Positions 1-58,625 of a stretch of 64,000 nucleotides of DNA are shown here, in pieces. Source of the DNA: an uncultured Candidatus Saccharibacteria bacterium (GTDB lineage Bacteria > Patescibacteriota > Minisyncoccia > Phycocordibacterales > JACOZG01); NCBI GenBank assembly GCA_964399075.1, contig CAYNPK010000001.1, forward strand, positions 55,457 to 119,456. The letters run 5' to 3'. Every line of letters starts with the position of its first letter. Within the stretch, counting starts at the first letter, position 1. A program made the translations under genes and the position numbers. The notes below the pieces were generated by a model. That model worked only from the letters and a program-made list of their open reading frames with translations, did not search any database and was not told the DNA's origin.

Positions 1-228
1 GGCGCCGTGTTGCTGATACCATTCCTCAATGGCAATGCAGAGCTCGATGAGGGCGTCATTCTTGACGAAGGTTTGTCGATTGGGATGCAATTCAACACCC
101 TTCGCGATGATTTCGCCCTCAAATACTCCAGACGAGAGCGCCGTTACCACCTCTTCGGCTAGCAACCTTTCGGTTGATCGAAGCATGAGGTGGAGGGGGA
201 TACGTGAATCGTCACGCGCTGTCCCCAT
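1..228 (-). CDS. hypothetical protein, partial (C-terminus beyond left window edge); high-GC foreign-looking gene
   Basis: Minus-strand frame is open from about 420 down to position 1 with no stop. It reads ...GRKLPEVVINGTTLFRLFIARKSKKGGRDGRVLMGTARDDSRIPLHLMLRSTERLLAEEVVTALSSGVFEGEIIAKGVELHPNRQTFVKNDALIELCIAIEEWYQQHGA, which is protein-like. First in-frame ATG is at 228; GTG/TTG starts are possible up to about 400. The plus-strand ORF 29..397 is an S/R/P-rich antisense shadow. Confidence 0.35.
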   Translation of the reverse strand, partial: MGTARDDSRIPLHLMLRSTERLLAEEVVTALSSGVFEGEIIAKGVELHPNRQTFVKNDALIELCIAIEEWYQQHGA

Positions 229-571
229 AAGAACTCGACCGTCTCGTCCCCCCTTCTTGCTCTTTCGAGCGATGAAGAGACGGAAGAGGGTGGTGCCGTT
301 TATCACCACTTCCGGCAACTTACGACCTTGGAACTCCGAAGCCACAACGTCTGACCAGACTCGGTGTTCACCCTTCTCGGATGTGGGTCCGAGCTGATGA
401 GCGCCAAAGCGCGAAACAGAAAAGCGGTGAAAAAAATTAGCAGCCACGGATGTCACAATTTATTTGGAAACATCTTGTCGGCCGCTGTGAGGGTTTGAAA
501 AAGTTTTCGAATCTTAACAGTGGACTGACAATGTGTCGGTTCGGAAGTAGGTCTTTAAATTGGAGATTACC

Positions 572-919
572 ATGAGCGTTTGCGAAATCTGCGGCGGCCA
601 CGGCAGCGTCACGATCGTCGAGAAGATCTCATGTGGTGGCGGGTGCTGCGAAGCATTCCGCAACGAGATCGGCATGAAGATCACCAAGGGTCAGAATCCA
701 GAGAAGTGTCCCAACGGCGATGCTGCCAAGCACGCTGCCATTGGGATCTGCTCGGCCTGCGCGCGGCAGCGAGTTCGGCGGTTGCCGACTGAGTTCCCGG
801 AAGGTTGCGAGCATCGGCCATCGGTTTTCAAAACCGTGGTTCCGTCTGCTTCGTCACCGCCCAGGAGCTCTTCGGTCGCCCGCACTTCTGCCTCCAAGAC
901 CCACACGCGTTCGCTGTAA
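572..919 (+). CDS. small Cys-rich protein (possible zinc-ribbon), C-terminal half low-complexity; high-GC block
   Basis: GGAG 7 nt upstream of ATG 572. N-terminus MSVCEICGGHGSVTIVEKISCGGGCCEAFRNEIG...CPNGD...CSAC has several Cys pairs. The true 3' end is uncertain. Confidence 0.3.
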   Translation: MSVCEICGGHGSVTIVEKISCGGGCCEAFRNEIGMKITKGQNPEKCPNGDAAKHAAIGICSACARQRVRRLPTEFPEGCEHRPSVFKTVVPSASSPPRSSSVARTSASKTHTRSL

Positions 920-1045
920 TCCACAACGGCTTGGAAAGTGCCTTTAAACTTTCCCCTGATATTCGCCTGTGTGGGCGGACTGATGATTCCGAAAGGATGA
1001 AATCAGGATGATCTTTCAAACAAATTTTTCCGAAAGGAAATAAAT

Positions 1046-1456
1046 ATGAGTAAGTGGTTTATTCTAGAAGGTGATTGGGGTGGGCAGATTTATTTGACCA
1101 TACCAATCGCCAAAACAACGGCAGAGCGTGCACAGCAGGCTCTTCGCATCATCGATGCGGTTGAGTGGTCTTGTAATGAGCGCAGAGGCGCCTCATTCTA
1201 CACTCAAGATGGTCAGCCGGGCGATGGTGTTTGGGGCGGGATGGGCGGTGGTCTACTTACGGAAGGTCTCTGGACGCATCATCACCTCAACCCGGCACTC
1301 AAACTCTGGGTTGCCTCGTTCCTGATTGGAGAGGCTAATCTCCCGAACCCAGAAACCATGGCCGATTGGCTTTTGGCTGAAGAGCTCCACTGCTACTGCC
1401 CTCGTGAGGAGGCAGTGCAGAAGATGCGCAGAGCCCTTCATCCTCGCCAACCCTGA
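1046..1456 (+). CDS. hypothetical protein (high-GC block)
   Basis: ORF with AGGA-type RBS (aaaggaaataaatATG). Followed by a strong intrinsic terminator. No recognisable domain. Confidence 0.4.
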   Translation: MSKWFILEGDWGGQIYLTIPIAKTTAERAQQALRIIDAVEWSCNERRGASFYTQDGQPGDGVWGGMGGGLLTEGLWTHHHLNPALKLWVASFLIGEANLPNPETMADWLLAEELHCYCPREEAVQKMRRALHPRQP

Positions 1457-1477
1457 CTTGGCACCTGGCTCAAACGG

Positions 1478-1512
1478 CCAACGGACCCCACGACTGTGTC
1501 GCGGGGTCTTTT
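1478..1512 (+). terminator. rho-independent terminator
   Basis: GACCCCACGAC...GTCGCGGGGTC stem followed by TTTTTTTTATT. Confidence 0.6.
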
Positions 1513-18443: not shown

Positions 18444-19187
18444 TTAATTTATTGTATCATAACGTGGTGGACCGAGAGAACCGCTAGCTTCTAAGGTAAT
18501 ATCGGCAAAATGGACAGATTGTTCGACTTCGATAACACCCTGACGAACAAGTTCGAGAATACCAAGAAAGCTAACAATAACATTCACCCGCTCTTTCCGA
18601 CCTCTCACTAGATCACGAAAACCTATTTTGAGCGATGACTGAATCCTTTTTGTTAAATCAGCAATGGCCTCTTCCAGACTAATAATTTTACTAACAACAA
18701 TTTTAGGTAAAGTTTCGACCTTGGGAAATAGTGTAATTAAATTTTTAACAGTAGCGACTAGTATTTTTAAATTAATTTCTGGTGTGACAGAAAAAACCGG
18801 GACAATTTCGCGGTTTTGTCCACGAGAAAAAATTATCTTGTTACCAAAACGATTTTTTATTTCACCACTTAACTCTTTTATTTGTTGATAAATTTTTAGT
18901 CGTCGCTCTAGATCAACCATGCTTTCTTGTTCTTCTGGAGTAGTTTCTATTGTTGGCAGAAGAGAAACTGACTTAATCAACATTAGAGTGGCCGCAACTA
19001 AAATAAAATTAGCTCGTCTAGTTTTGTCTGTCCGGTCTAATTTTTCTAAATAGAGGATAAAGTCGTCAGTGACCGTTGCTAACGACACCTGACTAATGTG
19101 GAGTTTTTTGTCCTCAATTAAATTAAGTAGAACCTCTACGGGGCCTTCAAATTCTCCCACTCTTATTTTAAAGGCTTCTTTTGACAC
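18444..19187 (-). CDS. scpA: segregation and condensation protein A
   Basis: FEGPVEVLLNLIEDKKLHISQVSLATVTDDFILYL is a ScpA hallmark. Confidence 0.85.
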   Translation of the reverse strand: MSKEAFKIRVGEFEGPVEVLLNLIEDKKLHISQVSLATVTDDFILYLEKLDRTDKTRRANFILVAATLMLIKSVSLLPTIETTPEEQESMVDLERRLKIYQQIKELSGEIKNRFGNKIIFSRGQNREIVPVFSVTPEINLKILVATVKNLITLFPKVETLPKIVVSKIISLEEAIADLTKRIQSSLKIGFRDLVRGRKERVNVIVSFLGILELVRQGVIEVEQSVHFADITLEASGSLGPPRYDTIN

Positions 19188-20577
19188 TCTGAATATTGAG
19201 TCCTAATTCTGCTAATTGTTTTGGCTCAATGGGAGCTGGTGCGTCCATCATTAAGTCCTTACCTTCACCAGTCTTGGGGAAAGCGATCACTTCGCGGATG
19301 TTGGGTTCGCCGTAAAGTAGGGTGACGAAGCGATCGAAGCCCCAAGCAATACCGCCGTGTGGTGGCGCTCCGGAAGCCAGAGCCTTAAGCATGTGGCCAA
19401 AGTTACTCGCAATCCTTTCCTCAGCAAAACCCATAATTTCGAAAACTTTCTTGAGTGCGTCTGGTTGATGGTTGCGAATACTGCCACCGCCAATCTCGAA
19501 ACCGTTTAGAGCCACGTCGTATTGAGTGGTAATGATCTCGCCAATTTTCTCTTTATTCATCAGCCAAGCTTCGTGTTCCGGAATAGCGCGAGAGAACGGA
19601 TTGTGAGTGAAGGTCCAACTACCATCTTCTGTTTTCTCGAAGAACGGAAAATCAATCACCCAACAGAAAGCGAGTAAGTTTGGATCATTCTTGTCCTCAC
19701 GCATATCTGGACGGTCGGTACCATACTTCTCCATCGCTTCCTTGTAAGTGATGCGGGGAAAAGGAATTTGTTGGATCTTTTTTTCTGGTGCTAAAGTCTG
19801 CACAATCTTGATTAGGAGTTCTTCATTGAGCGCCATCACGTCATCACGATTAACGAAAGACATTTCCATATCAAGTTGAGTGAATTCTGGCTGACGGTCG
19901 CCACGAGTATCCTCGTCTCGCAAACAACGAGCAAATTGGAAATATCTTTCCAAACCAGCTACCATTAATAATTGTTTGTATTGTTGCGGTGATTGCGGTA
20001 GGGCGTAGAATTTACCGGGGTCAAGACGCGACGGAACAACATAATCTCTAGCTCCTTCCGGTGTAGATTTTGTCAAAATCGGCGTTTCTACTTCCACAAA
20101 ACCTTCTTTGGACAAGTGGTCGCGAATGAATCTCATAACCTTATAGCGATTTCTAATATTCTTTTGTAGGCGTTCACGCCTTAAATCTAAATAACGATAT
20201 CTAAGACGTGCTTCCTCATTAATTTCATAGCCTGGAGTGTCAATCGAAATTGGTAAAGTCGAAGCTTCATTGAGTACATTTAAAGAGAGAATTTCAATCT
20301 CTAAGTCACCGTTTAATATTTTGGAATTAATATTTTTTTCTGGACGTTTATTAACTTTACCGATTATTTCTATCACCCATTCCGGACGAACTTTTTCAGC
20401 AATTGCGTGAACTTCTGCGTTGTTTGGCAAAGCTACCATTTGCACCTGACCGCTTTTATCTCGCAAATCCATAAAAATTAATTTACCTTGATCACGACGA
20501 GAGTTTACCCAGCCGGCCAAACGCACCTCGGCGCCAATCTTATCAGTTAGTTGATCAATATAAATTCGCTTATTCAT
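19168..20577 (-). CDS. aspS: aspartate--tRNA ligase, short (archaeal/type-2 like, no GAD insertion); could be non-discriminating
   Basis: Class IIb anticodon-binding OB-fold N-terminus. Motif 3 GGGSIRNH...PHGGIAWGFDRFVTLL...IREVIAFPKT. 469 aa. Confidence 0.7.
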   Translation of the reverse strand: MNKRIYIDQLTDKIGAEVRLAGWVNSRRDQGKLIFMDLRDKSGQVQMVALPNNAEVHAIAEKVRPEWVIEIIGKVNKRPEKNINSKILNGDLEIEILSLNVLNEASTLPISIDTPGYEINEEARLRYRYLDLRRERLQKNIRNRYKVMRFIRDHLSKEGFVEVETPILTKSTPEGARDYVVPSRLDPGKFYALPQSPQQYKQLLMVAGLERYFQFARCLRDEDTRGDRQPEFTQLDMEMSFVNRDDVMALNEELLIKIVQTLAPEKKIQQIPFPRITYKEAMEKYGTDRPDMREDKNDPNLLAFCWVIDFPFFEKTEDGSWTFTHNPFSRAIPEHEAWLMNKEKIGEIITTQYDVALNGFEIGGGSIRNHQPDALKKVFEIMGFAEERIASNFGHMLKALASGAPPHGGIAWGFDRFVTLLYGEPNIREVIAFPKTGEGKDLMMDAPAPIEPKQLAELGLNIQSVKRSL

Positions 20578-20601
20578 GTGGTTATTTATACCATTTATTT
20601 T

Positions 20602-20633
20602 TTAATAATGAAAGCGAGATTCCCTGTTACAGA
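20602..20633 (-). terminator. terminator-like hairpin (perfect 10-bp stem) between the high-GC lipoprotein gene and aspS
   Basis: AAGCGAGATT-loop12-AATCTCGCTT with modest U-rich flanks on both strands. Confidence 0.4.
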
Positions 20634-20641
20634 AATCTCGC

Positions 20642-21241
20642 TTATTTTCGCCCCAAAGTGATCTCAATGCCGATTGAACCATACCAGCCGTCAAGATCAA
20701 CATCGGCGCGTCGAGTGAAAGTTTCCGTGAAGTGATAGCCCATTCCCCAAACCACTCGCCAGTCTTTGCTTTTGCTGATCGGAATTTCTCCAATGGCTCC
20801 CAAATTAAGACCGAGACCAGTAAACTGATCCGGGGTGGTCAATTTGATGGGTCCTAGTCTGCCCATCATCCGATAGCGAGCTTGATAGGCTTCCAGACCA
20901 AGGTCTAGTCCCATCACTCGACTGGTTATCGGGAAATAGTGAACGCCCAATCCCCCAGAAACAAATGACCCTTCAGCTTGGCCAGCCAGAACCGGGTGGG
21001 TGGCTTGCACCCCTCCCTGATTGAACTGCAGTTGAGCATAAGCGTCAAGGTTGTCAGTCAAGCGCTGTTTAGCTCGCAGTTCCCACAGCGGAATAACAGC
21101 CTTAGCTCGCATTCCGTTGTATTTGCCACTAATTTGACGTGTAGCAAGGCCCAAGCTACCCCGATCGGGACTAATAACACAAGCCCCCAGAAAACCAGAT
21201 AGTCCTATCAAAACCAGAATTGACGCCTTTCTGATAGTCAC
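20642..21241 (-). CDS. lipoprotein with outer-membrane beta-barrel-like C-terminal region (OmpW/OmpX-like pattern); high GC
   Basis: GTG start with GGAG RBS. Signal plus lipobox LGAC. Alternating-hydrophobic strands (VHYFPITSRVMGLDLGLEAY, WRVVWGMGYHFTE, GWYGSIGIEITLG). GC well above neighbours. Confidence 0.5.
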   Translation of the reverse strand: MTIRKASILVLIGLSGFLGACVISPDRGSLGLATRQISGKYNGMRAKAVIPLWELRAKQRLTDNLDAYAQLQFNQGGVQATHPVLAGQAEGSFVSGGLGVHYFPITSRVMGLDLGLEAYQARYRMMGRLGPIKLTTPDQFTGLGLNLGAIGEIPISKSKDWRVVWGMGYHFTETFTRRADVDLDGWYGSIGIEITLGRK

Positions 21242-21300
21242 TTTTTTCTCCTTTCACTTTTTTATGACATGAAGAACAAGATCCTTGTTACTCTTCTATT

Positions 21301-21330
21301 TTTAGCACATTTAGCGAAATTTAGCTAATG
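21301..21330. repeat. three tandem 10-bp direct repeats (tttagcacat / ttagcgaaat / ttagctaatg)
   Basis: ATTTAGC core recurs with exact 10-bp phasing, immediately upstream of the high-GC lipoprotein gene and downstream of the trpS stop. Confidence 0.5.
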
Positions 21331-21336
21331 TTTAAA

Positions 21337-22317
21337 TTATCTCACCCCGATCTTCTGACGAACTGTCGCTAATTTCAATTTAGCCAAATCTCTCGCTCGA
21401 CTTGCTCCGTTGGCTAGAATCTGCTCAACATCGTCAACGTTTTTCGCAATACTTGCTCGTCGTTCAACCAGAGGTGTAAGCATCGTGTTAATATTTTTAA
21501 TTAAAATTTCTTTTGATTCTTTATAGCCAATTTTCCCTTCCAGATAACGACTCTCCAGTTCTGGAAGTTGACCTTCAGAAAATAGCTTATGCAGAGCAAA
21601 CACATTGCATTTCTCTGGGTCTTTAACTTCATCGGTTGATTTAGAATCAGTCACAATACTCATGACTAATTTTGCTACTTCTTGTTCGTTAGCAAAAAGT
21701 GGAATAGTATTGTTATAACTTTTACTCATCTTGCGACCGTCAATCCCTGGTATGGTCTTAATTTTATCCAGAATCAATGGCTCCGGAAGGTGGAAGGTGT
21801 CGTCAAACAATCGATTGAACTTCTCGGCGGTGTCACGAGCAATTTCCACATGCTGTTTCTGGTCTTGCCCGACTGGCACCACATCAGCGTCGTATAGCAA
21901 AATATCAGCCGCCATCAGTAATGGATAAGCAAAAGTTCCCACGCTCACTTCCACCCCTTTGCTAAGGGCGTCTTTATAAGCGTGAGCTCTCTGTAGATAA
22001 GGCACAGTAGTGAGACAATTGAAAATCCAAGCTAACTCTGTGTGTTCCGGCACCTCTGATTGTTTAAAGAGAATCACTCGCTCTGGATCAAGACCGATAG
22101 CGAGATAATCTATAGCCATATCCAGAGAATTTCGTCGGAGATGAGGCGCTCGATGTTCAGTTGTTAGGGCGTGATAGTCGACAATCATAACCAAACTCCG
22201 GTATTCATCCTGAAGGTCTACAGCCTGTTTGAGAGCACCAAAATAATTACCAATATGCGGTCGCCCAGTTGGCTTAATTCCTGTAACTAAAATTTTCTGT
22301 TTGTTACTAGTTTCCAT
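21337..22317 (-). CDS. trpS: tryptophan--tRNA ligase
   Basis: TGIKPTGRPHIGNYFGAL (HIGH-type) and KMSKS. Confidence 0.9.
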   Translation of the reverse strand: METSNKQKILVTGIKPTGRPHIGNYFGALKQAVDLQDEYRSLVMIVDYHALTTEHRAPHLRRNSLDMAIDYLAIGLDPERVILFKQSEVPEHTELAWIFNCLTTVPYLQRAHAYKDALSKGVEVSVGTFAYPLLMAADILLYDADVVPVGQDQKQHVEIARDTAEKFNRLFDDTFHLPEPLILDKIKTIPGIDGRKMSKSYNNTIPLFANEQEVAKLVMSIVTDSKSTDEVKDPEKCNVFALHKLFSEGQLPELESRYLEGKIGYKESKEILIKNINTMLTPLVERRASIAKNVDDVEQILANGASRARDLAKLKLATVRQKIGVR

Positions 22318-22476: not shown

Positions 22477-23115
22477 CTAGACACTTTGCGAGACGACAAA
22501 CGCAAAACCGCCGTCAACATTCCACCTGCTGCCGGGCTTGTCGTAGCACGCATGCAGCAAGCGACCGTCGCGGTACGCACCGAGTAAGTGCGGGAGGCCG
22601 AGGGAGTCGAGGATGAGTTTGTGCATGGCGACGATCCAGGCCAGACCCATCTGCTCGATTTCCTTGTCCGTGAACTTCAGACGGATGAGGCAAGCCAGCT
22701 CGGCGTTGGGGGTGGTCAGCTTGCGCCTCTTGGCCTGGGCGCGGATCTTTGAGCTGATCCGGTCCTCGTCTTCGAAGAGCAGGCCCTTGATCACAGCGAC
22801 TTCGGTGGTCACGCCACTCGTCGGTTTGAAGTCCGAGGAACGGAGCAGCTGCTTGGCGTGGTCTCCAATACAGACGCCCTGGCTCTCCAGTCTGGCGATC
22901 CAGTCTTCGCCGGTCGTGCCGTCCGAGGTGACGCTGAAGCGAATGACGCCGTTTTCCTCGTGCCAGGTGCGAATTGGCTTTTGAGCCACGAGCTCGCCGG
23001 CGAGAAATGCCCGGATACCGTTTGCGGTACTCATTCCGGCATCCTGTCCGATCTTCATGAGGGCCGCGTCCAGCTGTCCACGGGTGAAATGATTCAGTTC
23101 GTTGACCCGACCCAT
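22477..23115 (-). CDS. hypothetical protein, high-GC single-gene cassette (no recognisable domain)
   Basis: AGGAGA RBS 6 nt before the ATG and its own terminator. Inserted between trpS and valS. GC visibly far above flanks. Confidence 0.55.
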   Translation of the reverse strand: MGRVNELNHFTRGQLDAALMKIGQDAGMSTANGIRAFLAGELVAQKPIRTWHEENGVIRFSVTSDGTTGEDWIARLESQGVCIGDHAKQLLRSSDFKPTSGVTTEVAVIKGLLFEDEDRISSKIRAQAKRRKLTTPNAELACLIRLKFTDKEIEQMGLAWIVAMHKLILDSLGLPHLLGAYRDGRLLHACYDKPGSRWNVDGGFAFVVSQSV

Positions 23116-33678: not shown

Positions 33679-34941
33679 CTACGAACTTATATTAGCAGAA
33701 GCCTCCGGATGAGTCAATACTTTAATTTCTATGTCTTCGGATTGAGACGGGAAATATCTAAGCCACGGTGGCCAAAAAATAGCCTTGGCCGAATAAATAG
33801 CTGGAAATTGTTGAGAAATGGACTCTCCTTGACGCTTAGAATTACCAGCTAATAATTGGCTTAGCGCAATGGTATCAACTTCAGCTTGAATATAAGCTTG
33901 GCCAGAAACAGTAAGAGTAATCGACTCTGAGCTCTCAGTCACTTGTTCTTTATTATTTATCGTGATATCCAGATCGCTTAAATTAGAGATGAAATATTTT
34001 AAATCTTGAAAATCGGGAATTTCTCCATTGATCAAGTGAACAGTAAATTGATTTCGGTCAAAAATAATCACGCGCGGTAGAGCTGAAACAGTTAAGGTTA
34101 CCGAATTATCTTCACCCTCATTAACTTGCAATTGTTCAGAAAAATCAACAGATAAAGAATCGGCAGACCAAATAAAGGTGTCCGGAATTTGCGTCACCAA
34201 TTGACCCAAAGCTTGTTCTCTCAAAATTTGCTCTAATTCCGCCCGAGAAGATCTCTTGTCGTCGTCGGCCACTTTGGGAATTGAGCCGACGTAGCCACCA
34301 GTCATGGGAGTTTTTGAGCGAGCATAGAATTTTTCATATCGCGGACTATCTTTAAATCCAGGAATAGAGAAATCAGTTAGTGGAGAATTATAATTTTCTC
34401 CCGGATTATCAGCATAAACTGTTACTTCAACTTGTCCGGGAACAATTTGACCAGAAATGGTTGTTTGACCGGGAACGACAACTTCTTTATTAATGCGATA
34501 AATATTACCCGCCGTAGACTCAAATCTAGTGCCGGTAATTAAGGTTTGAGGAGAAGTGTTAAAATTATTATAAATAACAATTTGACCGCTAGCTTTTTGT
34601 TCAACCTCTTCGATCCCGCTGGCGATAAGATTTCTAGAGTCAACTAGAGATGGGAAGGTGGCAATTTTAAAATCAGGAATTTGAACTTGTTTATTATCAA
34701 AAGTTAAAATTTCCTGTCTAGGTGTTATTTCTACAGAAACACTAGAAAATAAACTCCCGATCGTGTAGATGACAATAGAGAACAAAACTAAAACAGCGAC
34801 AATAATAAAAACACGAACAGTAGCCGGAGACGGAGATCGATGAGGTCTAGCGATTGATATGGCCACTGGTTTGGTTGCTGATACCTTCTTGGGTAAAATT
34901 TCGCTTAAACTTTTTTTGTGATTACGAATATCTTGAAACAT
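33679..34941 (-). CDS. hypothetical bitopic membrane protein (short cytoplasmic N-terminus, one TM, large extracytoplasmic domain)
   Basis: TM RVFIIVAVLVLFSIVIYTIGSLF. No recognised domain. First gene of a three-gene cluster between infA and alaS. Confidence 0.4.
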   Translation of the reverse strand: MFQDIRNHKKSLSEILPKKVSATKPVAISIARPHRSPSPATVRVFIIVAVLVLFSIVIYTIGSLFSSVSVEITPRQEILTFDNKQVQIPDFKIATFPSLVDSRNLIASGIEEVEQKASGQIVIYNNFNTSPQTLITGTRFESTAGNIYRINKEVVVPGQTTISGQIVPGQVEVTVYADNPGENYNSPLTDFSIPGFKDSPRYEKFYARSKTPMTGGYVGSIPKVADDDKRSSRAELEQILREQALGQLVTQIPDTFIWSADSLSVDFSEQLQVNEGEDNSVTLTVSALPRVIIFDRNQFTVHLINGEIPDFQDLKYFISNLSDLDITINNKEQVTESSESITLTVSGQAYIQAEVDTIALSQLLAGNSKRQGESISQQFPAIYSAKAIFWPPWLRYFPSQSEDIEIKVLTHPEASANISS

Positions 34942-34943
34942 AA

Positions 34944-36101
34944 TTAATTAATTGATTTTTTAATTCTACCATAAAAAACGGTTTCTGCTACTAGGGCTTG
35001 ATCATAAATAACCCCCGACGTTAAACTATAACCTTCTCGTAGAATATCAGCGGATAATACATTTACCATAAACGGCTTACGGCTAACTTTAAATTCACCG
35101 AATTCATACGCCTGAAGCCATTGATGGAACAATGGGGCCATCAGTGGATCACTGACAATAAAAACAGTACTTGGCATAAAGCAATCGTCTAAGACCTTAA
35201 TCAACCCCTGGCGGAAATTATCTAACCACTTGGTTTTAGCCTTATTTAATGCTTGATTTATCCGTTCCGCAATGAGTGGATGTTGCTTATTGGCGATAAA
35301 CAGAGCAAGAGAAGATCGCATTTCGGCTGGGGTTGTGGCAAACTCCTTAACCAAGGTTCTAAGCAACCAATGACTGCCGAAAGGGTAAGAAACACTCCCC
35401 CTTAGTAATTTCTGCCAAACTAGAGAAATCTCACTTACTTCCCCATCAACATCCAAAATAACAAAACTATCTTGATCTGAAATGTCTTTCAAAACTTGAT
35501 AGAAAGCGAAGGCGGTCGCACAAAATTCAACTTCAACATGATGCCATTTGGCCATAATCACTTTACGAAATTGGTCCAAAATTCGACTGGAACCAAGATT
35601 TAAATAATGAGCAATTTCCAGTTCGTTTACTTTCTGACCAAACGGATGAGGTAACAAATAACCATTAGTTTTAATTTGCATTTGTTCAGTTTGTATTAAT
35701 TCGTGAGCGGATTTTTTTTCTTGGGGAGAAAAGAGTGATGGCAGAGATCGTTTAAAAGTCGCGACCTGGCTCATCACTAATTTATTTACCAATTGCGATG
35801 TTAAGAGAAATGGCTTAATCTCACTTTTTTTAATTACTTGAGTGCGAGAGGCATAAAATGGCGCCGAAAGAAAGCAAACCACCTTCTCTGGACGAGAAGC
35901 GCCTTGAGAAATAAGCTGGGTGATAGATTCTTCCAGAGTCAGGACTACTTGATGCAGAAATCGTTCTGAAGTTAAATTTTCCTGGAAATTAACCTCTCGA
36001 CGAACTCGCTGAATGATTTCTGGTTTCGAGCCTTTCGATTGCTTCACTAAAGCGATTCCAATTGAGGCGCTACTAATATCAACAATAGCAACTGAAGACA
36101 T
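34944..36101 (-). CDS. actin-like ATPase fold protein (FtsA/PilM-like N-terminus)
   Basis: N-terminus VAIVDISSASIGIALVK resembles the phosphate-1 motif of FtsA/PilM/Ppx. About 385 aa. Weak overall. Confidence 0.35.
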   Translation of the reverse strand: MSSVAIVDISSASIGIALVKQSKGSKPEIIQRVRREVNFQENLTSERFLHQVVLTLEESITQLISQGASRPEKVVCFLSAPFYASRTQVIKKSEIKPFLLTSQLVNKLVMSQVATFKRSLPSLFSPQEKKSAHELIQTEQMQIKTNGYLLPHPFGQKVNELEIAHYLNLGSSRILDQFRKVIMAKWHHVEVEFCATAFAFYQVLKDISDQDSFVILDVDGEVSEISLVWQKLLRGSVSYPFGSHWLLRTLVKEFATTPAEMRSSLALFIANKQHPLIAERINQALNKAKTKWLDNFRQGLIKVLDDCFMPSTVFIVSDPLMAPLFHQWLQAYEFGEFKVSRKPFMVNVLSADILREGYSLTSGVIYDQALVAETVFYGRIKKSIN

Positions 36102-36125
36102 TTTAAAAGTATAACATGAATTAGC

Positions 36126-37685
36126 TTAAGGAAGGACACTGGGATTGTGAATAATTTTAAGCTTTTCAACTAAAGAAAGTATTTCTGAAGAGTCTGGACG
36201 ACTTTGTTGAGAAATCGAGATAAACTGAGCAATAGTCGGCCATAGAATCATCGAACGCCTTTCTGGTGTCAAATCATTCCAGTTTTCCGCTTCCTTATCT
36301 GGATCTGTGTAATCTGTGTGAGCTAGAACAGGGGGAGTTATTTTTTTTAGATTAGATTTAGGTTTGGATTTAACCAAAACAGGAAGATTATCATCTTCTG
36401 GGACTTGGGATGAAGTATAAAGTAAGACAGAAAAAGTTTCGCTAGCTGAATTATTAGACAGATCAACCGCCTGGCAAGTTACCAAAGTGGTACCAAGATC
36501 AAAAATCGTTCCAGAACTCGGACTACAAATAACCTCGACAACGCCATCGACCATATCGCTAGCAACTGGATAATCATAGTTAACAACGCTCGGTCCACCA
36601 ACTTCAATTTCTCTATCAACCACCGAAGATAAAACCGGTGGCGTAGTATCAACAACCGTAATTGTTCTTGTAATTGGTAGGGCTGAATTATCAGACAAAT
36701 TATTAACTTGATAAGTGACGATATGTTCGCCCAAAATAAGGGTATCAATTGGCAAACCGGTAACTTCAATAAGATCTGTAAGATCACCGTCATCTTGATC
36801 CCAAGCCGTAGCTCCGAAATCCACATAAGTTGAACCAGCCTCGACAACAATCAGCTCCTCGCCAATCAAAATAATAACAGGAAGATCTGGGTCAACCTCA
36901 ACAACTTCTTCCATTATTTCTTGCACGACAGTGTCAGAAGTACTGCCCTGGAAATTATCGTCACCCTCGTAAACAACAAAAAGTGAATGGAGCCCGGGCA
37001 ACAAATCAGAAATAGAAACAGTAGCCACGCCAGCAGAGTCTAATTCCAATGATTCAGCCAGATCTGTTTCCCCAAATTCACCAGTTTCTTTCAATTTAAT
37101 AACTCCGCTAGGAATACCAACACCGTCAGGAGAAGAATGAGACACAGTGACCACTAATTCTAAATCTTCTGTTGGCAAAGATGGGTTTGTTGCAGAAGAC
37201 AGAGTTATAATGCTATCAGCTTGATCGACTGTCTTATTTAAGGGGGCACTGTAGCCAATTGCAAGATTAATTAAACCCTCACTTTTATCAATAACTTCAG
37301 CAGTCAAATTAACTTCACCAGCCGAAGTGTCGCGATAGAAAAAATTATCGGTGTTTTGTCTGGGTGAAAGAATATCAAGAATTAAGTTTGTTTCTGTAAA
37401 ATCACCAACAGTGCTAGTATCAAAATACCCAGTTGGAGAATCTGAAGAAATTTTTACTCTAAGATATTGATCAGTCCCAGTTACCGCTTCAGCTAGGCCG
37501 TCAATATTTTGAGCCCGAATTCTTAGCGGTTTTGAAGTGATATTAGGCAAACCAACAATAAAACTTGGTGGCTGATCTACAGGATTAAATCCAATTTGAG
37601 TAATTTCATCACTGGCCGCTTCGACAATTCTAAAAACACCAAAAAGGCTAACCAAACAAAAGGTTAGAATAAAAAGATTTTTCAT
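36126..37685 (-). CDS. secreted protein with tandem bacterial Ig-like (DUF5011/HYR-like) domains
   Basis: Signal peptide. ...DDGDLTDLIEVTGLPIDTLILGEHIVTYQVNNLSDNSALPITRTITVVDTTPP and a second ...DGVVEVICSPSSG...LVTCQAVDLSNNSASETF repeat. Confidence 0.45.
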   Translation of the reverse strand: MKNLFILTFCLVSLFGVFRIVEAASDEITQIGFNPVDQPPSFIVGLPNITSKPLRIRAQNIDGLAEAVTGTDQYLRVKISSDSPTGYFDTSTVGDFTETNLILDILSPRQNTDNFFYRDTSAGEVNLTAEVIDKSEGLINLAIGYSAPLNKTVDQADSIITLSSATNPSLPTEDLELVVTVSHSSPDGVGIPSGVIKLKETGEFGETDLAESLELDSAGVATVSISDLLPGLHSLFVVYEGDDNFQGSTSDTVVQEIMEEVVEVDPDLPVIILIGEELIVVEAGSTYVDFGATAWDQDDGDLTDLIEVTGLPIDTLILGEHIVTYQVNNLSDNSALPITRTITVVDTTPPVLSSVVDREIEVGGPSVVNYDYPVASDMVDGVVEVICSPSSGTIFDLGTTLVTCQAVDLSNNSASETFSVLLYTSSQVPEDDNLPVLVKSKPKSNLKKITPPVLAHTDYTDPDKEAENWNDLTPERRSMILWPTIAQFISISQQSRPDSSEILSLVEKLKIIHNPSVLP

Positions 37686-45128: not shown

Positions 45129-47975
45129 TCAAATCACAATATTAACCAATTTACCCGGAACATGAACGACTTTCTTAATCTTCTTATCTACTAACCATTT
45201 CTGGATTTTAGCTCTATTCTTAGCCTCAATTTCAATCTCAAGTGGCGACAATGACGGTGACACTTTAATAGTATCACGGAGAATTCCATTAATTTGAATA
45301 GCGATGGTGATTTCGTCAACAATGATTTTATCAGGATCATATTTCGGCCAAGGAGCAAGATGAATTGAGCGACTATTACCAAGCTCATGCCACAATTCTT
45401 CAGTTAAATGAGGAGCAAATGGAGCTAAGAGCTGAAGCATTAATTCATAATCCTGACGACTAATGTTCTCCTCTGTCTCCAGACTATTAACTAAAATCAT
45501 TAAAGAAGAAATCGCGGTATTGAAGCGCATGGCCTCAACATCCTCACTAACTTTTTTAATCGTTTGATGCAGAAGTAAGGTTAATTTTGAATTATCACTA
45601 CTCTCTTCTTTTTTGGCCACCTTGCTCCTTAAACGCCAGACTCTTTCCAGAAACCGCCGTGGGCCAATTAGACTCTCCGTACTCCAGGCAATGGCTTGAT
45701 CGAATGGTCCCATAAACATCTCGTAGAGTCGCAGAGTATCAGCACCATAAAGTTCCACAAACTTATCCGGATTAACCACATTGCCTCTTGATTTGGACAT
45801 TTTCTCTCCCCCTTCGGCCAAGATCATTCCGTGAGAAGTTCGCTTCTGGTATGGTTCACTACTCGGCACTAAGCCAAGATCGAACAAGAATTTGTGCCAG
45901 AATCGCGAGTAGAGCAAGTGGAGAGTAGTGTGCTCCATTCCACCGTTATACCAATCCACTGGCGTCCAGTGTTTTAACTTTTCTAAGGAGGCAAATGCAT
46001 CTATATTTCGAGAATCAACATAACGCAAATAATACCAACTAGAGCCAGCCCAATTAGGCATCGTGTCGGTCTCTCGCTCAGCTGGACCAGCGCAAGTTGG
46101 ACAAGTAGTCTTAACCCAATCAGTGATACCGGCAAGTGGTGATTCTCCGGTTTCTGTTGGCTGATAGCGTTCTACCGCCGGCAAAGTAACAGGCAAATCC
46201 TTCTCCGGCACCGACACCCAACCACACTTAGAACATTTAATCATTGGGATTGGTTCACCCCAATAGTGTTGACGAGAAAAAACCCAGTCACGAAGTTTGT
46301 AAGTAACTTTTTGTTGACCAAATTTATTAGTAATTTTTTCCTGCGCTTCTTCAGAAGCTAAACCATCAAATTCATTAGAATTAATCATCTCGCCTTCCAT
46401 AGAAAGAGCTGTTTCTGAAATTAACTGATTCCAAACCAGTTTTTGATGATCAGGGGTCAATCTATCAATTACAAGATCTTCATCTACCCATACAAGTGTA
46501 TGAAGTTTCTGTTCCGACTCAGCAATCACACCTTGATTCTTTAGACTATCAATTTCTGCTAATATTCCATAAGAAACCGCTTTTCTATTTTGTTTTTTGT
46601 GCGAGGCACAATATTTGGCTGCAGTGATCCAGCGTAATTTATTTTTAATAACAATTCCTTCAAGAGAGGCTTCTTCTTTTATCTCCATGAGTGCCGCCTC
46701 TTCTGGCGTCTGACCAGCCTCAATACCACCCATTATTGCTGTAGTAATACCTTCTAAACTCTCGTGCCAATCAAGTAATGCAAATTTGCCCGTAGACTTA
46801 TCACGCAAGTGGACAATAATTGTATCTCGCACAACTTCTTCAAAACCTTCACGAGGTGGATTTATTGAATCATCTTCGCATGGCATTATAACCTGCTTGA
46901 TAGGCAGATTAAATTTTTTCGCAAACGCATAATCTCTCTCATCGTGCGCCGGCACAGCCATCACGGCACCGGTGCCATACGACACCAAAACATAATCGGC
47001 GATCCAAACCGGAACCTTCTCTTGATTAGCAGGATTAATGGCAAAAACACCATCTAGCACAACGCCAGTTTTCTCTCGCCCTTCTGTGATGCGATCCATC
47101 TCGGTCTTAGTTTTGACTTCCGCTAAATATTCCTCCACCGCCGGCCAATTTTTAATTTGCGATTTCAATTTTTGAATCAACTCATGCTCCGGAGCTAATA
47201 CCACATAAGTAACCCCGAAGAGCGTGTCAGCCCTAGTGGTAAAGACTGAAACTTTTTCTCCAGAATCAACAATTTTAAATTCAAATTCCGCGCCGACACT
47301 TCGGCCTATCCAATGGCGTTGTTGAATTTTAATTTTCTCCAAATAATCTACCGTGTCTAAATCTTTATCTAATCTGTCAGCGTACTTAGTAATCGCCAAC
47401 ATCCACTGTTCCTTATCTCGCTTCTCCACCGGCGTCCCGCATCGTTCGCAATTCCCACTAACCACTTCCTCATTGGCCAAACCAATTAAACACTTAGGAC
47501 ACCAATTAATCGCCATCTTCTTCTTGTAAGCCAAACCTTTCTTAAATAATTGCAAGAAGATCCACTGCGTCCACTTGTAATATCCCGGATCAGTGGTGTT
47601 GATTTCTCGCGACCAATCAAAAGAGAAACCAAGCGACTGGAGTTGTCGCCTAAAAATATCAGTATTCTGCTTGGTAACAATCGCCGGCTGGACGCCAGTC
47701 TTAATCGCGTAATTCTCCGTCGGCAGACCGAAGGCGTCCCAGCCAATAGGATAGAGAACGTTATACCCTTCGGCGCGTCGCTTGCGGGCAATCACATCCA
47801 TTGCTGTGTTGCTCCGAATATGCCCGACATGCAAACCGTCGCCGGAGGGATAAGGAAATTCAATCAAGCAATAATATTTCCGCTTATCACTATTATCTAG
47901 AGCTTGATAAATTCCATCTTTTTCCCACTCCCTCTGCCACTTTGGTTCTATTTCTTTATGGTCGTAATTTTTCAT
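45129..47975 (-). CDS. leuS: leucine--tRNA ligase
   Basis: True start MKNYDHKEIEPKWQ at 47975. HVGH and KMSKSRGN motifs. Confidence 0.9.
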   Translation of the reverse strand: MKNYDHKEIEPKWQREWEKDGIYQALDNSDKRKYYCLIEFPYPSGDGLHVGHIRSNTAMDVIARKRRAEGYNVLYPIGWDAFGLPTENYAIKTGVQPAIVTKQNTDIFRRQLQSLGFSFDWSREINTTDPGYYKWTQWIFLQLFKKGLAYKKKMAINWCPKCLIGLANEEVVSGNCERCGTPVEKRDKEQWMLAITKYADRLDKDLDTVDYLEKIKIQQRHWIGRSVGAEFEFKIVDSGEKVSVFTTRADTLFGVTYVVLAPEHELIQKLKSQIKNWPAVEEYLAEVKTKTEMDRITEGREKTGVVLDGVFAINPANQEKVPVWIADYVLVSYGTGAVMAVPAHDERDYAFAKKFNLPIKQVIMPCEDDSINPPREGFEEVVRDTIIVHLRDKSTGKFALLDWHESLEGITTAIMGGIEAGQTPEEAALMEIKEEASLEGIVIKNKLRWITAAKYCASHKKQNRKAVSYGILAEIDSLKNQGVIAESEQKLHTLVWVDEDLVIDRLTPDHQKLVWNQLISETALSMEGEMINSNEFDGLASEEAQEKITNKFGQQKVTYKLRDWVFSRQHYWGEPIPMIKCSKCGWVSVPEKDLPVTLPAVERYQPTETGESPLAGITDWVKTTCPTCAGPAERETDTMPNWAGSSWYYLRYVDSRNIDAFASLEKLKHWTPVDWYNGGMEHTTLHLLYSRFWHKFLFDLGLVPSSEPYQKRTSHGMILAEGGEKMSKSRGNVVNPDKFVELYGADTLRLYEMFMGPFDQAIAWSTESLIGPRRFLERVWRLRSKVAKKEESSDNSKLTLLLHQTIKKVSEDVEAMRFNTAISSLMILVNSLETEENISRQDYELMLQLLAPFAPHLTEELWHELGNSRSIHLAPWPKYDPDKIIVDEITIAIQINGILRDTIKVSPSLSPLEIEIEAKNRAKIQKWLVDKKIKKVVHVPGKLVNIVI

Positions 47976-48894
47976 CTTGAATAGGAATGAGAGGGTAACG
48001 TTCCTGATCAATAGTTCTAGTAAAACAGGTATAACCTGTTTCGTGTTCCCAATTTTGTTGGACATCACCAAGTTGAGTTGGCCTCATTATGGCGGGAGCA
48101 GTATTATCTCGATTAGCAAGATTAAAATCAGCGCATAATTCAAATTCTTCTGGACCAAGCACTCGATAATCGTAAGCGACTCCAGTTTGTGGATCAAGAG
48201 GAATCTGATAATTAGAAATAGGGTCACTTAAATCCGTGAGAGCAAGCGGTAGAGAGTGTTTCTGTTGCCAATAATTAACAATCTGCCACTGAATATTTTG
48301 CAAATCATTAATTTTTCTCTCGTCAAAGCGCATTAGACGAACCGTCTGCGGTGAACCCATAATTACAAAACCGCCAACGATAGAGGCAATAATAACTACC
48401 AGAGAACTGATCGCCATTATTTTATTTAAGCGCGAATTTGTTTCATTCCTGCGTACGTCATACAAATAATAACCAAAAACTGCCATGGCAATAATCAATA
48501 CTGCTAGAACCTTAAGAATAAAGCGCGTGGTTATCTCACCGCCCAGAAAGTAATTAATTAGAGTAATAAGATTAATTACCAGAGTGACTCCAGCCACAAA
48601 TAAAGTGATGTAAATCAACCACTTACGGATCCACAAATCGCGCTTAGCCGGATCTTGAACATAATTACGATTTAAAAGCCAAGACAATAACACATAGAGT
48701 GGGAAAACAATCAAGAGCGAAGCAATAGACCAACGAATACCGGCAGAATAAGGATCAGAAAAATAATATTCCAATTGATCGGGAAAAGAAATATTGATAA
48801 TTCTAAACAACAAAGTCAGTAAACTAATAGTGCTGACAAACAAGGCGACAATAACGCCAAGATGCAAAAAGAAATCTTTTGGTGTGGTTTTCAT
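47956..48894 (-). CDS. hypothetical polytopic membrane protein with C-terminal soluble domain
   Basis: 4-5 TM helices then a soluble tail; 20-bp overlap with the leuS start. Confidence 0.4.
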   Translation of the reverse strand: MKTTPKDFFLHLGVIVALFVSTISLLTLLFRIINISFPDQLEYYFSDPYSAGIRWSIASLLIVFPLYVLLSWLLNRNYVQDPAKRDLWIRKWLIYITLFVAGVTLVINLITLINYFLGGEITTRFILKVLAVLIIAMAVFGYYLYDVRRNETNSRLNKIMAISSLVVIIASIVGGFVIMGSPQTVRLMRFDERKINDLQNIQWQIVNYWQQKHSLPLALTDLSDPISNYQIPLDPQTGVAYDYRVLGPEEFELCADFNLANRDNTAPAIMRPTQLGDVQQNWEHETGYTCFTRTIDQERYPLIPIQDEKLRP

Positions 48895-52181: not shown

Positions 52182-52775
52182 CTACTGTCGTCGTCTACGC
52201 ACCAGCCCCAGGAACCCGAAACTCATGAGACCAAGCGATGCAGGTTCAGGAATCGGAATGCCAGTGAGAATGAAGTCATCAAAGTGCATCCGATCGCCAC
52301 TACTGTCCATAACGGCCGTTAGTCGTAAGGTGAAATTGGAATTGTCATCCGAAGCGACAGGCAAGAGAAGCGTCTCAGGACGCCAAACTGTTTCGGCCTG
52401 CAGTCCTTCGTAAGCAACAAGCTGCTCCCAATCAATGTTGTTGTTGGAGATCTCAACGCGAATGATGTCTTCATCCAGCTCTATACTCTCCCTTACTTTA
52501 TACCAATACTTGAGGGAGATGTTATGATAGCCAGCTAAAGAGATTTGTCCCATCAACTCATCACCCTGTTCAAACCCAGCACTCCGGCCATAAATATCGG
52601 CACTGAATTGACCAGAATGTGCTGTTTCAGTAGTCGTTCTCCATAAGCCAAAATTTCCAGGGAACCAGTTAGAGAAATTCCCCGACTCGAAATCGTCACT
52701 CCAAATCACTGCCTGGGCCCATGTCGGAACGCAAACCAACAACAACACCGTCACTGCCACAAAAATCGTCTTCAT
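52182..52775 (-). CDS. PEP-CTERM sorting-domain secreted protein; high GC
   Basis: Signal peptide MKTIFVAVTVLLLVCVPTWAQA. C-terminus PEPASLGLMSFGFLGLVRRRRQ is PEP motif, hydrophobic helix, then Arg cluster. AGGAGA RBS. Confidence 0.6.
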   Translation of the reverse strand: MKTIFVAVTVLLLVCVPTWAQAVIWSDDFESGNFSNWFPGNFGLWRTTTETAHSGQFSADIYGRSAGFEQGDELMGQISLAGYHNISLKYWYKVRESIELDEDIIRVEISNNNIDWEQLVAYEGLQAETVWRPETLLLPVASDDNSNFTLRLTAVMDSSGDRMHFDDFILTGIPIPEPASLGLMSFGFLGLVRRRRQ

Positions 52776-58525: not shown

Positions 58526-58527
58526 CT

Positions 58528-58603
58528 TGGTGGACCCTATCGGACTTGAACCGATGACCTCCGAGGTGCAAGCTCGGCGCTCTACCAACTGAGCTAAGGG
58601 CCC
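58528..58603 (-). tRNA. tRNA-Ala (anticodon UGC), CCA encoded
   Basis: Minus strand: gggccct...agggtccaCCA with G3:U70; anticodon arm ccgag ctTGCac ctcgg. Confidence 0.85.
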
Positions 58604-58625
58604 ATTTAGATTAGACAATAGCACA

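What the first reader, a model, noticed from the sequence alone, without database searches (positions are those of the whole stretch)
20602..21336. High-GC lipoprotein with outer-membrane beta-barrel-like strands, preceded by 3x10-bp phased repeats
This 199-aa protein has a lipobox (LGAC) and four or more amphipathic beta-strand-like segments ending in aromatic residues, the pattern of small OM barrels (OmpW/OmpX/PagL-like). It is unexpected next to aaRS genes in a reduced genome.

The cassette is GC-rich and uses a GTG start with a GGAG RBS.

Upstream, ATTTAGC recurs three times at exact 10-bp spacing (21301-21330). That periodicity places the copies on one helix face, as in iteron or operator arrays. 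A perfect 10-bp hairpin follows the gene.
Basis: partly seen in the sequence, partly recalled or inferred. Interest (0 to 1): 0.55.

Follow-up and report, generated by a model that had tools for sequence, protein, structure and literature searches.

The report
Outer-membrane-type barrel lipoprotein in ultrasmall microbes
A small gene in a reduced Patescibacteria (CPR) genome encodes a lipid-anchored protein predicted with high confidence to fold like an OmpA/OmpX-type outer-membrane beta-barrel. Every relative whose genomic context I could check, bar one, sits in ultrasmall CPR bacteria or DPANN archaea, organisms thought to have no outer membrane.

Summary
The ORF (20642-21241, minus strand, 199 aa) is real: GTG start, GGAG ribosome-binding site, LGAC lipobox and a strong terminator hairpin.

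The upstream "3 x ATTTAGC at exact 10 bp" is only partly right. There are two ATTTAGC plus one TTTTAGC, spaced 9 and 10 bp. The repeats are locally non-random but absent upstream of all orthologues, so there is no support for an operator or iteron.

The barrel interpretation holds:
- An exhaustive HMMER search found about 60 uncurated relatives.
- With their alignment, AlphaFold2 gives pLDDT 92.8.
- The family shows a hydrophobic outward belt with a Gly/charged interior at the termini end, and a polar-outside, hydrophobic-core extension above it.

One clade of the family sits in Patescibacteria. The window's closest relatives carry it at the same place, upstream of aspS-scpAB-mraY-ftsW. The other clade sits in DPANN archaea, next to rpl37ae and peptidoglycan hydrolases.

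Fold and family are well supported. Which membrane the barrel occupies is unknown. My best guess is a partner cell's outer membrane or an unrecognised outer lipid layer.

The parts
20642..21241 (-). CDS, 199 aa: signal peptide plus lipobox followed by an 8-stranded beta-barrel. Predicted strands are residues 27-41, 44-60, 65-81, 86-102, 111-129, 132-154, 161-176 and 185-195.
21179..21241 (-). Codons 1-21: type II (lipoprotein) signal peptide ending in lipobox L18-G19-A20-C21.
   Evidence: Sequence. Cys21 is nearly invariant across the 41-sequence alignment. The AF2 model shows helix 3-20.
21248..21254 (-). Shine-Dalgarno sequence AAAGGAG, 6 nt before the GTG start.
   Evidence: Sequence. Orthologues carry AAAGGAGG at the same distance.
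21300..21325 (+). Three short direct repeats: TTTTAGC (21300), ATTTAGC (21309) and ATTTAGC (21319), spaced 9 and 10 bp, lying 59-84 nt upstream of the start codon. They may overlap the promoter; on the coding strand the third copy reads TGcTAAAAAT, which resembles an extended -10 element.
   Evidence: 2 matches against 0.02 expected. The consensus promoter scan found nothing. The repeats are not conserved upstream of orthologues. The promoter role is inference only.
20612..20643 (-). Intrinsic-terminator-like hairpin that overlaps the stop codon.
   Evidence: Scan. Fold dG -18.1 kcal/mol, z = -5.96. Orthologues also end in GC-rich hairpins followed by T runs.

Best explanation
ORF199 encodes a Sec-exported protein that is probably lipid-modified at Cys21. 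Its mature part folds into an 8-stranded antiparallel beta-barrel of the OmpA/OmpX/OmpW class.

The half of the barrel that holds both termini and the lipid anchor has a hydrophobic outward-facing belt, 4-6 alternating residues per strand. Its interior is lined by conserved Gly and charged residues. That is the signature of a bilayer-embedded barrel. The other half is a water-exposed extension with a polar outside and a conserved hydrophobic core.

The protein belongs to an uncurated, fast-evolving family of about 60 clusters (clustered at 50% identity). One clade is in Patescibacteria and one in DPANN archaea, and within each group the gene is held at a conserved position.

My committed mechanism: the lipid anchor and hydrophobic belt place the barrel in a lipid bilayer outside the cell's own cytoplasmic membrane. 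Most likely this is the outer membrane of a Gram-negative partner cell at the contact site. There it would act as a membrane tether and possibly as a cup that takes up hydrophobic molecules or lipids.

Shown: the gene, signal and lipobox, family, synteny and predicted fold. Inferred: which residues face in or out, membrane embedding, which membrane, and function.
For: Family:
- Exhaustive HMMER search: 61 representatives at E <= 1e-3, 47 at E <= 1e-10, mostly 170-215 aa.

Fold:
- AF2 pLDDT 92.8, pTM 0.82.
- The top Foldseek hits in PDB and the named top hits in BFVD are all outer-membrane barrels.
- 21 of 41 members weakly match Pfam OMP_b-brl PF13505.
- hhalign finds a partial match to OmpX, E 3.7e-4.

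Two-zone pattern:
- Family-averaged hydrophobicity alternates along the strands in two zones. All 14 conserved Gly and the conserved R35, D66, D113, E117, E152 and E193 fall on one face.

Lipobox:
- The Cys is conserved in at least 90% of members, including archaeal ones.

CPR contexts:
- P0002, P0005 and P0006 lie upstream of aspS-scpA-scpB-mraY-ftsW.
- Their AspRS is 73-76% identical to the window's, higher than in any barrel-less relative.
- P0015 and P0031 are named Patescibacteria by their source.

DPANN contexts:
- P0034, P0018 and P0013 lie next to rpl37ae. P0036 shares the FtsZ-FKBP26-aIF5A-M50 neighbours of the P0034 locus.
- P0040 is named Pacearchaeota.
- All four archaeal loci carry a peptidoglycan hydrolase beside the gene: LysM, Hydrolase_2, Peptidase_M15_3 or Phage_lysozyme. 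This implies dealings with bacterial cell envelopes.
Against: - Patescibacteria are described as monoderm and DPANN archaea have no bacterial-type outer membrane (PMC11665869, PMC12102498). No obvious home membrane or BamA insertase is known.
- Only about 6 residues separate the lipidated Cys from strand 1. If the anchor stays in the producer's membrane, the two membranes would have to be tightly apposed.
- Inserting a barrel into a host membrane from outside is topologically awkward.
- I could not read the model coordinates, so the in/out assignment rests on sequence alternation and hairpin parity.
- The query itself has no Pfam or NCBIfam hit.
- The two closest orthologues (P0002, P0005) lack the lipobox Cys, so lipidation is not indispensable.
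- There is no expression or proteomic evidence.
Confidence: 0.45

Rival explanations
1. The barrel sits in an outer lipid layer of the organism itself. On this reading, this Paceibacteria-like subclade and the DPANN clade have an outer-membrane-like bilayer that has not been recognised. The protein would be an ordinary structural or uptake OMP, lipid-anchored in the inner leaflet.
For: - The topology fits best: termini and lipid anchor lie at the belt end, and the polar extension points away, exactly as in diderm OMPs.
- The last strand keeps a beta-signal-like S-x-G-x-x-I-x-L pattern.
- The same 64-kb window encodes a bona fide PEP-CTERM protein (TIGR02595, 22.9 bits against a cut-off of 16). 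From my own knowledge, that sorting signal is normally tied to diderm envelopes.
- A weak CsgG-like hit lies in a related locus.
Against: - The literature describes Patescibacteria as monoderm.
- No OM-biogenesis gene is found among about 50 annotated window ORFs.
- The family is patchy: it is absent from all 80 trpS loci taken from genome representatives.
- Most members lack the terminal aromatic residue typical of BAM substrates.
Confidence: 0.2
2. It is a soluble or peripherally attached lipoprotein. An 8-stranded lipocalin/YceI-like barrel would bind a hydrophobic ligand such as scavenged lipid in the wall zone, without spanning any membrane.
For: - CPR bacteria depend on external lipids (general knowledge).
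- The upper half has a conserved hydrophobic interior.
- A lipobox plus a short linker is typical of surface-tethered binding proteins.
Against: - Strands are 15-23 residues long.
- The outward face at the termini end is conserved as hydrophobic on all eight strands, while the inward face there is Gly and charged residues. That is the reverse of a soluble barrel.
- Sequence links are to OMP_b-brl and OmpX.
Confidence: 0.15
3. The upstream TTTAGC repeats are a phased operator or iteron array that controls the gene.
For: Three copies occur within 26 bp, against 0.02 expected by chance. They lie 59-84 nt upstream of the start codon, where a promoter or operator would be expected.
Against: - Only two copies are identical, and the spacing is 9 and 10 bp.
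- No comparable array exists elsewhere in the window.
- No repeats lie upstream of orthologues in four other genomes.
- No regulator gene is adjacent.
- The intergenic RNA has no significant structure (z = -1.2).
- A simpler reading is a short degenerate tandem duplication of an A-tract-rich promoter region.
Confidence: 0.1
4. It is a recently acquired, functionless foreign gene, or an assembly chimera.
For: GC is about 9 points above the window. The trpS-aspS junction is a variable insertion site in relatives, holding a type I R-M system in L004 and secreted proteins in L003.
Against: - The identical locus appears in three assemblies.
- The nearest relatives have orthologues at the same position, with intact ORFs, ribosome-binding sites and terminators.
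- Coevolution in the family alignment is strong enough for a pLDDT 92.8 model.
- GC3 is only mildly raised.
Confidence: 0.05

Closest known systems
Small 8-stranded outer-membrane barrels of the OmpA-N / OprF-N / OmpX / Ail / NspA type (Pfam OMP_b-brl PF13505 and relatives)
   Same: - Outward hydrophobic belt, with a Gly/charged interior network.
- Strands extend beyond the membrane zone, as in OmpX and NspA.
- Weak PF13505 hits in half the family, and a partial hhalign match to OmpX.
   Different: - It has a lipoprotein (SPII) signal in place of an SPI signal.
- Most members have no C-terminal aromatic residue.
- The query is below every Pfam and NCBIfam threshold.
- The carriers are Patescibacteria and DPANN archaea, not diderm bacteria.
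OmpW / AlkL / PagP / PagL: 8-stranded barrels that handle hydrophobic substrates
   Different: No sequence relationship was detected (hhalign against OmpW, probability 5%). No catalytic residues were identified. A cavity or lateral opening could not be checked without coordinates.
Phage-borne and host-targeted OMP barrels
   Same: This is a small OMP-type barrel encoded outside a classical diderm chromosome. The top BFVD structural hits are phage-encoded OMP barrels.
   Different: tblastn found no match in phage or plasmid records. The gene sits among housekeeping genes at a conserved chromosomal position.

Membership tests
OMP_b-brl / OmpA-like 8-stranded transmembrane barrel superfamily | Significant sequence match to the family profile (Pfam PF13505 or a related model) | tested here: inconclusive
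   The query has no hit at E <= 1. 21 of 41 relatives hit PF13505 weakly, best E 9.7e-6. hhalign against OmpX gives E 3.7e-4, probability 37%, over 59 columns.
OMP_b-brl / OmpA-like 8-stranded transmembrane barrel superfamily | Closed barrel of 8 antiparallel strands | tested here: met
   [not shown]
OMP_b-brl / OmpA-like 8-stranded transmembrane barrel superfamily | Lipid-facing hydrophobic belt with a polar/Gly interior | tested here: met
   Family-averaged alternation on all 8 strands. The in/out parity is inferred from the sequence pattern and tight-hairpin pairing, not from coordinates.
OMP_b-brl / OmpA-like 8-stranded transmembrane barrel superfamily | C-terminal beta-signal ending in an aromatic residue (BAM substrate) | tested here: not met
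   The query ends ...GIEITLGRK. Only 3 of 51 full-length members end in F or W. The internal pattern polar-x-G-x-x-hydrophobic-x-hydrophobic is kept.
OMP_b-brl / OmpA-like 8-stranded transmembrane barrel superfamily | Host organism has an outer membrane and BamA | not testable with these tools
   Only 64 kb was available, and none of about 50 annotated ORFs is an OM-biogenesis gene. The literature calls the phylum monoderm.
Bacterial lipoproteins (Lgt/LspA substrates) | Signal peptide ending in lipobox [LVI][ASTVIG][GAS]C | tested here: met
   L18-G19-A20-C21 follows a positively charged n-region and a hydrophobic h-region. The Cys column is at least 90% conserved.
Bacterial lipoproteins (Lgt/LspA substrates) | lgt and lspA present in the genome | not testable with these tools
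   Neither is found among the window ORFs scanned.
OmpW family (PF03922) | Sequence match to the OmpW profile or protein | tested here: not met
   [not shown]
Soluble 8-stranded barrels (YceI / lipocalin / avidin) | Polar exterior, hydrophobic interior, short strands | tested here: not met
   [not shown]
Iteron / operator repeat array | Three or more near-identical sites in helical phase, conserved in orthologous contexts, with a cognate binding protein | tested here: not met
   Two identical copies plus one variant, spaced 9 and 10 bp. Absent upstream of orthologues. No regulator gene adjacent.
Rho-independent terminator | GC-containing stem-loop followed by a T-rich tail directly after the stop codon | tested here: met
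   (dG -18.1 kcal/mol, z = -5.96). The tail has only 5 T in 8 positions.

The most novel reading that the evidence does not exclude
CPR bacteria and DPANN archaea share a dedicated family of genuine transmembrane beta-barrel lipoproteins, exchanged across domains and then kept vertically in each group. [quoted passage not shown] In the archaea, the barrels would act alongside the adjacent peptidoglycan hydrolases. These would be the first candidate membrane beta-barrels native to archaea.
Probability: 0.35. Interest if true: 0.85.

Novelty: new variant of a known kind. Interest (0 to 1): 0.68.

Why it matters
Single-chain transmembrane beta-barrels are regarded as a hallmark of diderm outer membranes and their organelle descendants.

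Here a conserved, lipid-anchored OMP-type barrel family occurs almost only in ultrasmall episymbiotic bacteria and archaea. Such a family would bear on two open questions:
- what the envelopes of these uncultured lineages really look like;
- how they attach to hosts and extract lipids or nutrients from them.

It also offers a concrete, small and expressible protein with which to test both. The link to peptidoglycan hydrolases in the archaeal loci hints that some DPANN archaea target bacteria.

Tried and rejected
- The word-indexed homology search found only the protein itself. A profile version found 3 proteins. The exhaustive HMMER search was needed.
- Single-sequence AF2 was useless, pLDDT 30.
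- A sequence search of the PDB with the family profile gave nothing significant.
- The afdb50 fold library was unavailable.
- The consensus promoter scan found no sigma-70 site near the repeats.
- Rfam found only four tRNAs in the window and nothing near the gene.
- tblastn against phage and plasmid records found nothing.
- The 80 genome-representative trpS loci contain no family member, even with an HMM search.
- Five literature searches found no report of membrane beta-barrels in CPR or DPANN.
- 'Recent GC-rich cassette' was considered and rejected, because the gene is syntenic in the nearest relatives and its GC excess is mostly at codon positions 1 and 2.

Full report
**1. What is in the sequence**

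On the minus strand, 20642..21241 is a 199-codon ORF. It lies between trpS (21337..22317) and aspS (19168..20577), and is followed by scpA, scpB, mraY, ftsW and murG.

GTG at 21241 is the first possible start; only four codons separate it from the upstream in-frame stop. It is preceded by AAAGGAG at a 6-nt distance.

The N-terminus is MTIRKASILVLIGLSGFLGA-C, a textbook type II signal peptide with lipobox LGAC.

The stop codon overlaps a 13-bp stem (10 perfect pairs) followed by a T-rich tail. Its dG is -18.1 kcal/mol, z = -5.96, and none of 200 shuffles folds as well.

The same gene and neighbours occur in two other independent assemblies, so this is not an assembly artefact.

**2. The GC claim**

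The ORF is 50.3% GC against 40.9% for the window. Among 52 window ORFs this is z = +2.0. The excess sits in codon positions 1 and 2 (GC2 0.46, the highest in the window), and GC3 is only z = +1.2.

Orthologues in other genomes show the same 3-7 point excess over their loci. The signal is therefore mainly a Gly/Ala/Arg-rich protein composition.

The true compositional outlier nearby is the next gene but one, 22477..23115 (GC3 0.775, z = +4.8). See section 10.

**3. The repeat claim**

ATTTAGC occurs at 21309 and 21319. The third copy, at 21300, is TTTTAGC, so the spacing is 9 and then 10 bp.

Pairs of TTTAGC separated by 3-4 nt are expected 0.02 times in the window and occur twice, both here. 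The local repetition is real.

However, four orthologous upstream regions carry no such repeat. The consensus promoter scan finds nothing, the intergenic RNA has no significant structure (z = -1.2), and no regulator gene is adjacent.

On the coding strand the third copy reads TGcTAAAAAT, an extended -10-like element about 55 nt from the start codon. I regard the repeats as a short degenerate tandem duplication in an A-tract-rich promoter region. An operator or iteron role is unsupported.

**4. Lineage**

The best TrpRS relatives (up to 68% identity) are Patescibacteria MAGs: Vogelbacteria, Paceibacterota, Zambryskiibacteria, Campbellbacteria and Minisyncoccia.

The rest of the window is typical reduced-genome housekeeping: DnaB, RecR, several aminoacyl-tRNA synthetases, DnaK/DnaJ/GrpE, RpoA, Ddl, an M23 peptidase and a YceG-like protein. 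No outer-membrane biogenesis gene is present.

The literature describes this phylum as monoderm (PMC11665869; PMC12102498; PMC8871954; a 2026 preprint on a CPR pilus).

**5. Homologues**

The query has no Pfam or NCBIfam hit, and the word-indexed search returns only the query itself.

The exhaustive HMMER scan of 1.84 billion cluster representatives finds 61 proteins at E <= 1e-3 and 47 at E <= 1e-10. Most are 170-215 aa.

In a 41-sequence alignment the nearly invariant columns are the lipobox Cys, a set of glycines, R35, E117, D138 and Y169.

Half the members match Pfam OMP_b-brl (PF13505) weakly, best E 9.7e-6. No NCBIfam model covers the family. hhalign gives a partial match to E. coli OmpX, E 3.7e-4.

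**6. Structure**

With the family alignment, AlphaFold2 gives pLDDT 92.8 and pTM 0.82. The model has an N-terminal helix (the signal peptide) and eight long antiparallel strands.

- Foldseek agrees against both the PDB and BFVD.

I could not access the coordinates. I therefore analysed residue alternation along the predicted strands, averaged over the family.

- At the barrel end that carries both termini, one face is consistently hydrophobic on all eight strands. Examples are L65-A67-A69-L71-F73, L112-L114-L116-A118, L143-L145-L147-A149-I153, W161-V163-W165-M167-Y169-F171 and W186-I190-I192-I194-L196.
- The opposite face at that end holds all 14 conserved glycines and the conserved charges R35, D66, D113, E117, E152 and E193.
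- In the distal half the pattern inverts. The outside is polar or charged, and the inside is conserved hydrophobic: I37, I50, L52, V78, A89, F93, M125, L129, I132 and F140.

Cross-strand parity is consistent across the three hairpins at the distal end (between strands 1-2, 3-4 and 5-6). This is the organisation of OmpX/NspA/OmpW-like proteins: a membrane-embedded base and a protruding top.

The in/out assignment is an inference. It rests on glycine clustering and on the structural neighbours.

**7. Who carries it**

A neighbour-joining tree splits the family into two clades.

*Clade A (motif DLDGWYG).* This clade contains every member with a CPR context.
- P0002 (46% identical), P0005 and P0006 lie directly upstream of aspS-scpA-scpB-mraY-ftsW.
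- P0003 lies beside HisKA, an M23 peptidase and trpS.
- P0015 and P0031 are named 'Patescibacteria group bacterium' by their source.
- P0046 lies on a 716-kb chromosome.

The syntenic carriers have the highest AspRS identity (73-76%) and ScpA identity (52-63%) to the window. These values exceed those of any relative that lacks the gene. The 80 trpS loci from species representatives contain no member, even by HMM search. In those relatives the trpS-aspS junction is either tight or filled with unrelated cargo.

The gene is therefore vertically inherited within a subclade. At 42-46% identity against 73-76% for AspRS, it evolves fast, as surface proteins do.

*Clade B (motif GYNFTDN...DFDG).* This clade contains the archaeal members.
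- P0034, P0018 and P0013 lie next to ribosomal protein L37ae.
- P0036 lacks an rpl37ae neighbour but shares the downstream FtsZ, FKBP26 and aIF5A genes with the P0034 locus.
- P0040 is annotated Candidatus Pacearchaeota.
- P0034 and P0036 are only 24% identical yet share these neighbours.

In all four archaeal loci a peptidoglycan hydrolase sits beside the gene, from a different family each time: LysM, Hydrolase_2, Peptidase_M15_3 and Phage_lysozyme.

One member, P0048 (with P0029), comes from a 61%-GC genome with large-genome features.

No phage or plasmid record encodes a relative.

**8. How it most likely works**

*Shown.* This is an exported protein with a conserved lipobox and a confidently predicted OMP-type barrel. 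It is maintained in two groups of ultrasmall symbionts.

*Inferred.* The hydrophobic base is embedded in a bilayer. Both termini and the acylated Cys lie at the belt end, and the distal half is polar outside. The barrel therefore cannot plausibly sit in the producer's own cytoplasmic membrane, because the charged extension would have to cross it.

That leaves two possibilities:
- (a) a second bilayer belonging to a partner cell, meaning a Gram-negative host's outer membrane at a tight contact site;
- (b) an unrecognised outer lipid layer of the organism itself.

I favour (a), for three reasons:
- the carriers are episymbiont lineages in two domains;
- the archaeal loci pair the barrel with enzymes that only make sense against bacterial walls;
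- the terminal aromatic residue typical of BAM substrates is mostly absent.

The margin is small. The 6-residue linker and the problem of inserting from outside argue against (a). The PEP-CTERM protein in the same window leans towards (b).

The hydrophobic-cored top suggests a role in adhesion or in capturing hydrophobic molecules, as proposed for NspA, OmpW and AlkL. I recall that comparison from the literature and did not test it here.

My rough confidences are:
- OMP-type barrel fold: 0.85
- bilayer-embedded: 0.7
- partner-cell membrane: 0.3-0.35
- own outer layer: 0.2
- soluble lipid binder: 0.15

**9. Comparison with what is known, and novelty**

In fold and surface pattern this is an OmpA-N/OmpX-class barrel. 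In sequence it is at best a remote, uncurated branch of OMP_b-brl.

It departs from that family in three ways: the lipoprotein signal, the usual lack of a terminal aromatic residue, and above all its carriers.

Five full-text literature searches found no report of membrane beta-barrel families in CPR or DPANN. That is absence from the held library only.

I rate it a new variant of a known kind, with interest 0.68.

**10. Side observations**

- ORF 22477..23115 belongs to a very widespread Parcubacteria-specific family with no assigned domain. It has at least 1494 hits at 60-70% identity and sits here with strikingly foreign codon usage.
- 52182..52775 is a PEP-CTERM protein.
- One DPANN contig (L101) carries a second, truncated family copy.
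- Upstream of orthologue P0002 lies a perfect tetO-like palindrome, CTATCAGTGATAG.

Noticed in passing
window 22477-23115 (-): A 212-aa ORF between valS and trpS has 60% GC and GC3 0.775 (z = +4.8) in a 41%-GC genome, with no Pfam or NCBIfam hit. It belongs to a very widespread hypothetical-protein family with at least 1494 hits at 60-70% identity; every hit that carries a source name is from Parcubacteria/Patescibacteria. It looks like a highly conserved, possibly mobile CPR-specific gene.
   Followed up: partly
window 52182-52775 (-): A 197-aa secreted protein ends in PIPEPASLGLMSFGFLGLVRRRRQ. This is a bona fide PEP-CTERM sorting signal (TIGR02595, 22.9 bits against a cut-off of 16), normally associated with exosortase in diderm bacteria. 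It is a second 'diderm-type' envelope feature in this CPR window, and its GC3 is also raised at 0.515.
   Followed up: partly
L083 997-1767; L100 6361-7017; L101 3491-4090; L102 198-905: In four DPANN archaeal loci that carry a family member, a peptidoglycan hydrolase or PG-binding protein sits beside the barrel gene. It comes from a different Pfam family each time: LysM, Hydrolase_2, Peptidase_M15_3 and Phage_lysozyme. In three of the loci rpl37ae lies between the two. This looks like non-orthologous replacement at one locus.
   Followed up: partly
L101 5750-6034 (-): A second, contig-truncated copy of the barrel family (HMM E 2.5e-17) lies convergent to the first copy in one DPANN contig.
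   Followed up: no
L089 about 85-100 and L088 (upstream of P0002): The perfect palindrome CTATCAGTGATAG, identical to the tetO operator core, lies between the upstream terminator and the ribosome-binding site of the closest orthologue. Regulation of the orthologues evidently differs from that in the window.
   Followed up: no
L003-L022, trpS-aspS junction: In related Patescibacteria the trpS-aspS junction is either tight (under 60 bp) or filled with unrelated cargo. L004 holds a 5-kb type I restriction-modification-like cluster, L003 holds secreted proteins and L012 holds an ABC transporter. The junction is an insertion hot spot.
   Followed up: partly
window 45129-48071 (-): The 980-aa LeuRS shows a NUDIX-domain hit (residues 444-545, E 4.5e-5) directly after the editing domain. 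This is a possible lineage-specific insertion.
   Followed up: no
window 1-1500: A GC-rich stretch (54.5% in the first kb) holds only short ORFs. One is a Cys-rich 119-aa ORF (560-919) and another is a 136-aa ORF (1046-1456). This is another compositionally foreign island.
   Followed up: no
window 33679-37685 (-): A run of three large ORFs (420, 385 and 519 aa): the 519-aa one has Big_3_5, bacterial surface Ig-like and HYR domains (likely cell-surface), the 420-aa one only a weak GlxA-barrel hit, and the 385-aa one no hit. Such surface proteins are typical of episymbiont adhesion repertoires.
   Followed up: no
window 20578-20612: aspS starts at an ATG preceded by TATAAATAACCAC, with no Shine-Dalgarno sequence. 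This suggests a very short or leaderless transcript that starts just after the barrel gene's terminator.
   Followed up: no
window 58007-58624 (-): This 205-aa ORF overlaps a tRNA gene (58531-58603, -) and has no family hit. It is probably not a real gene over its full length.
   Followed up: no
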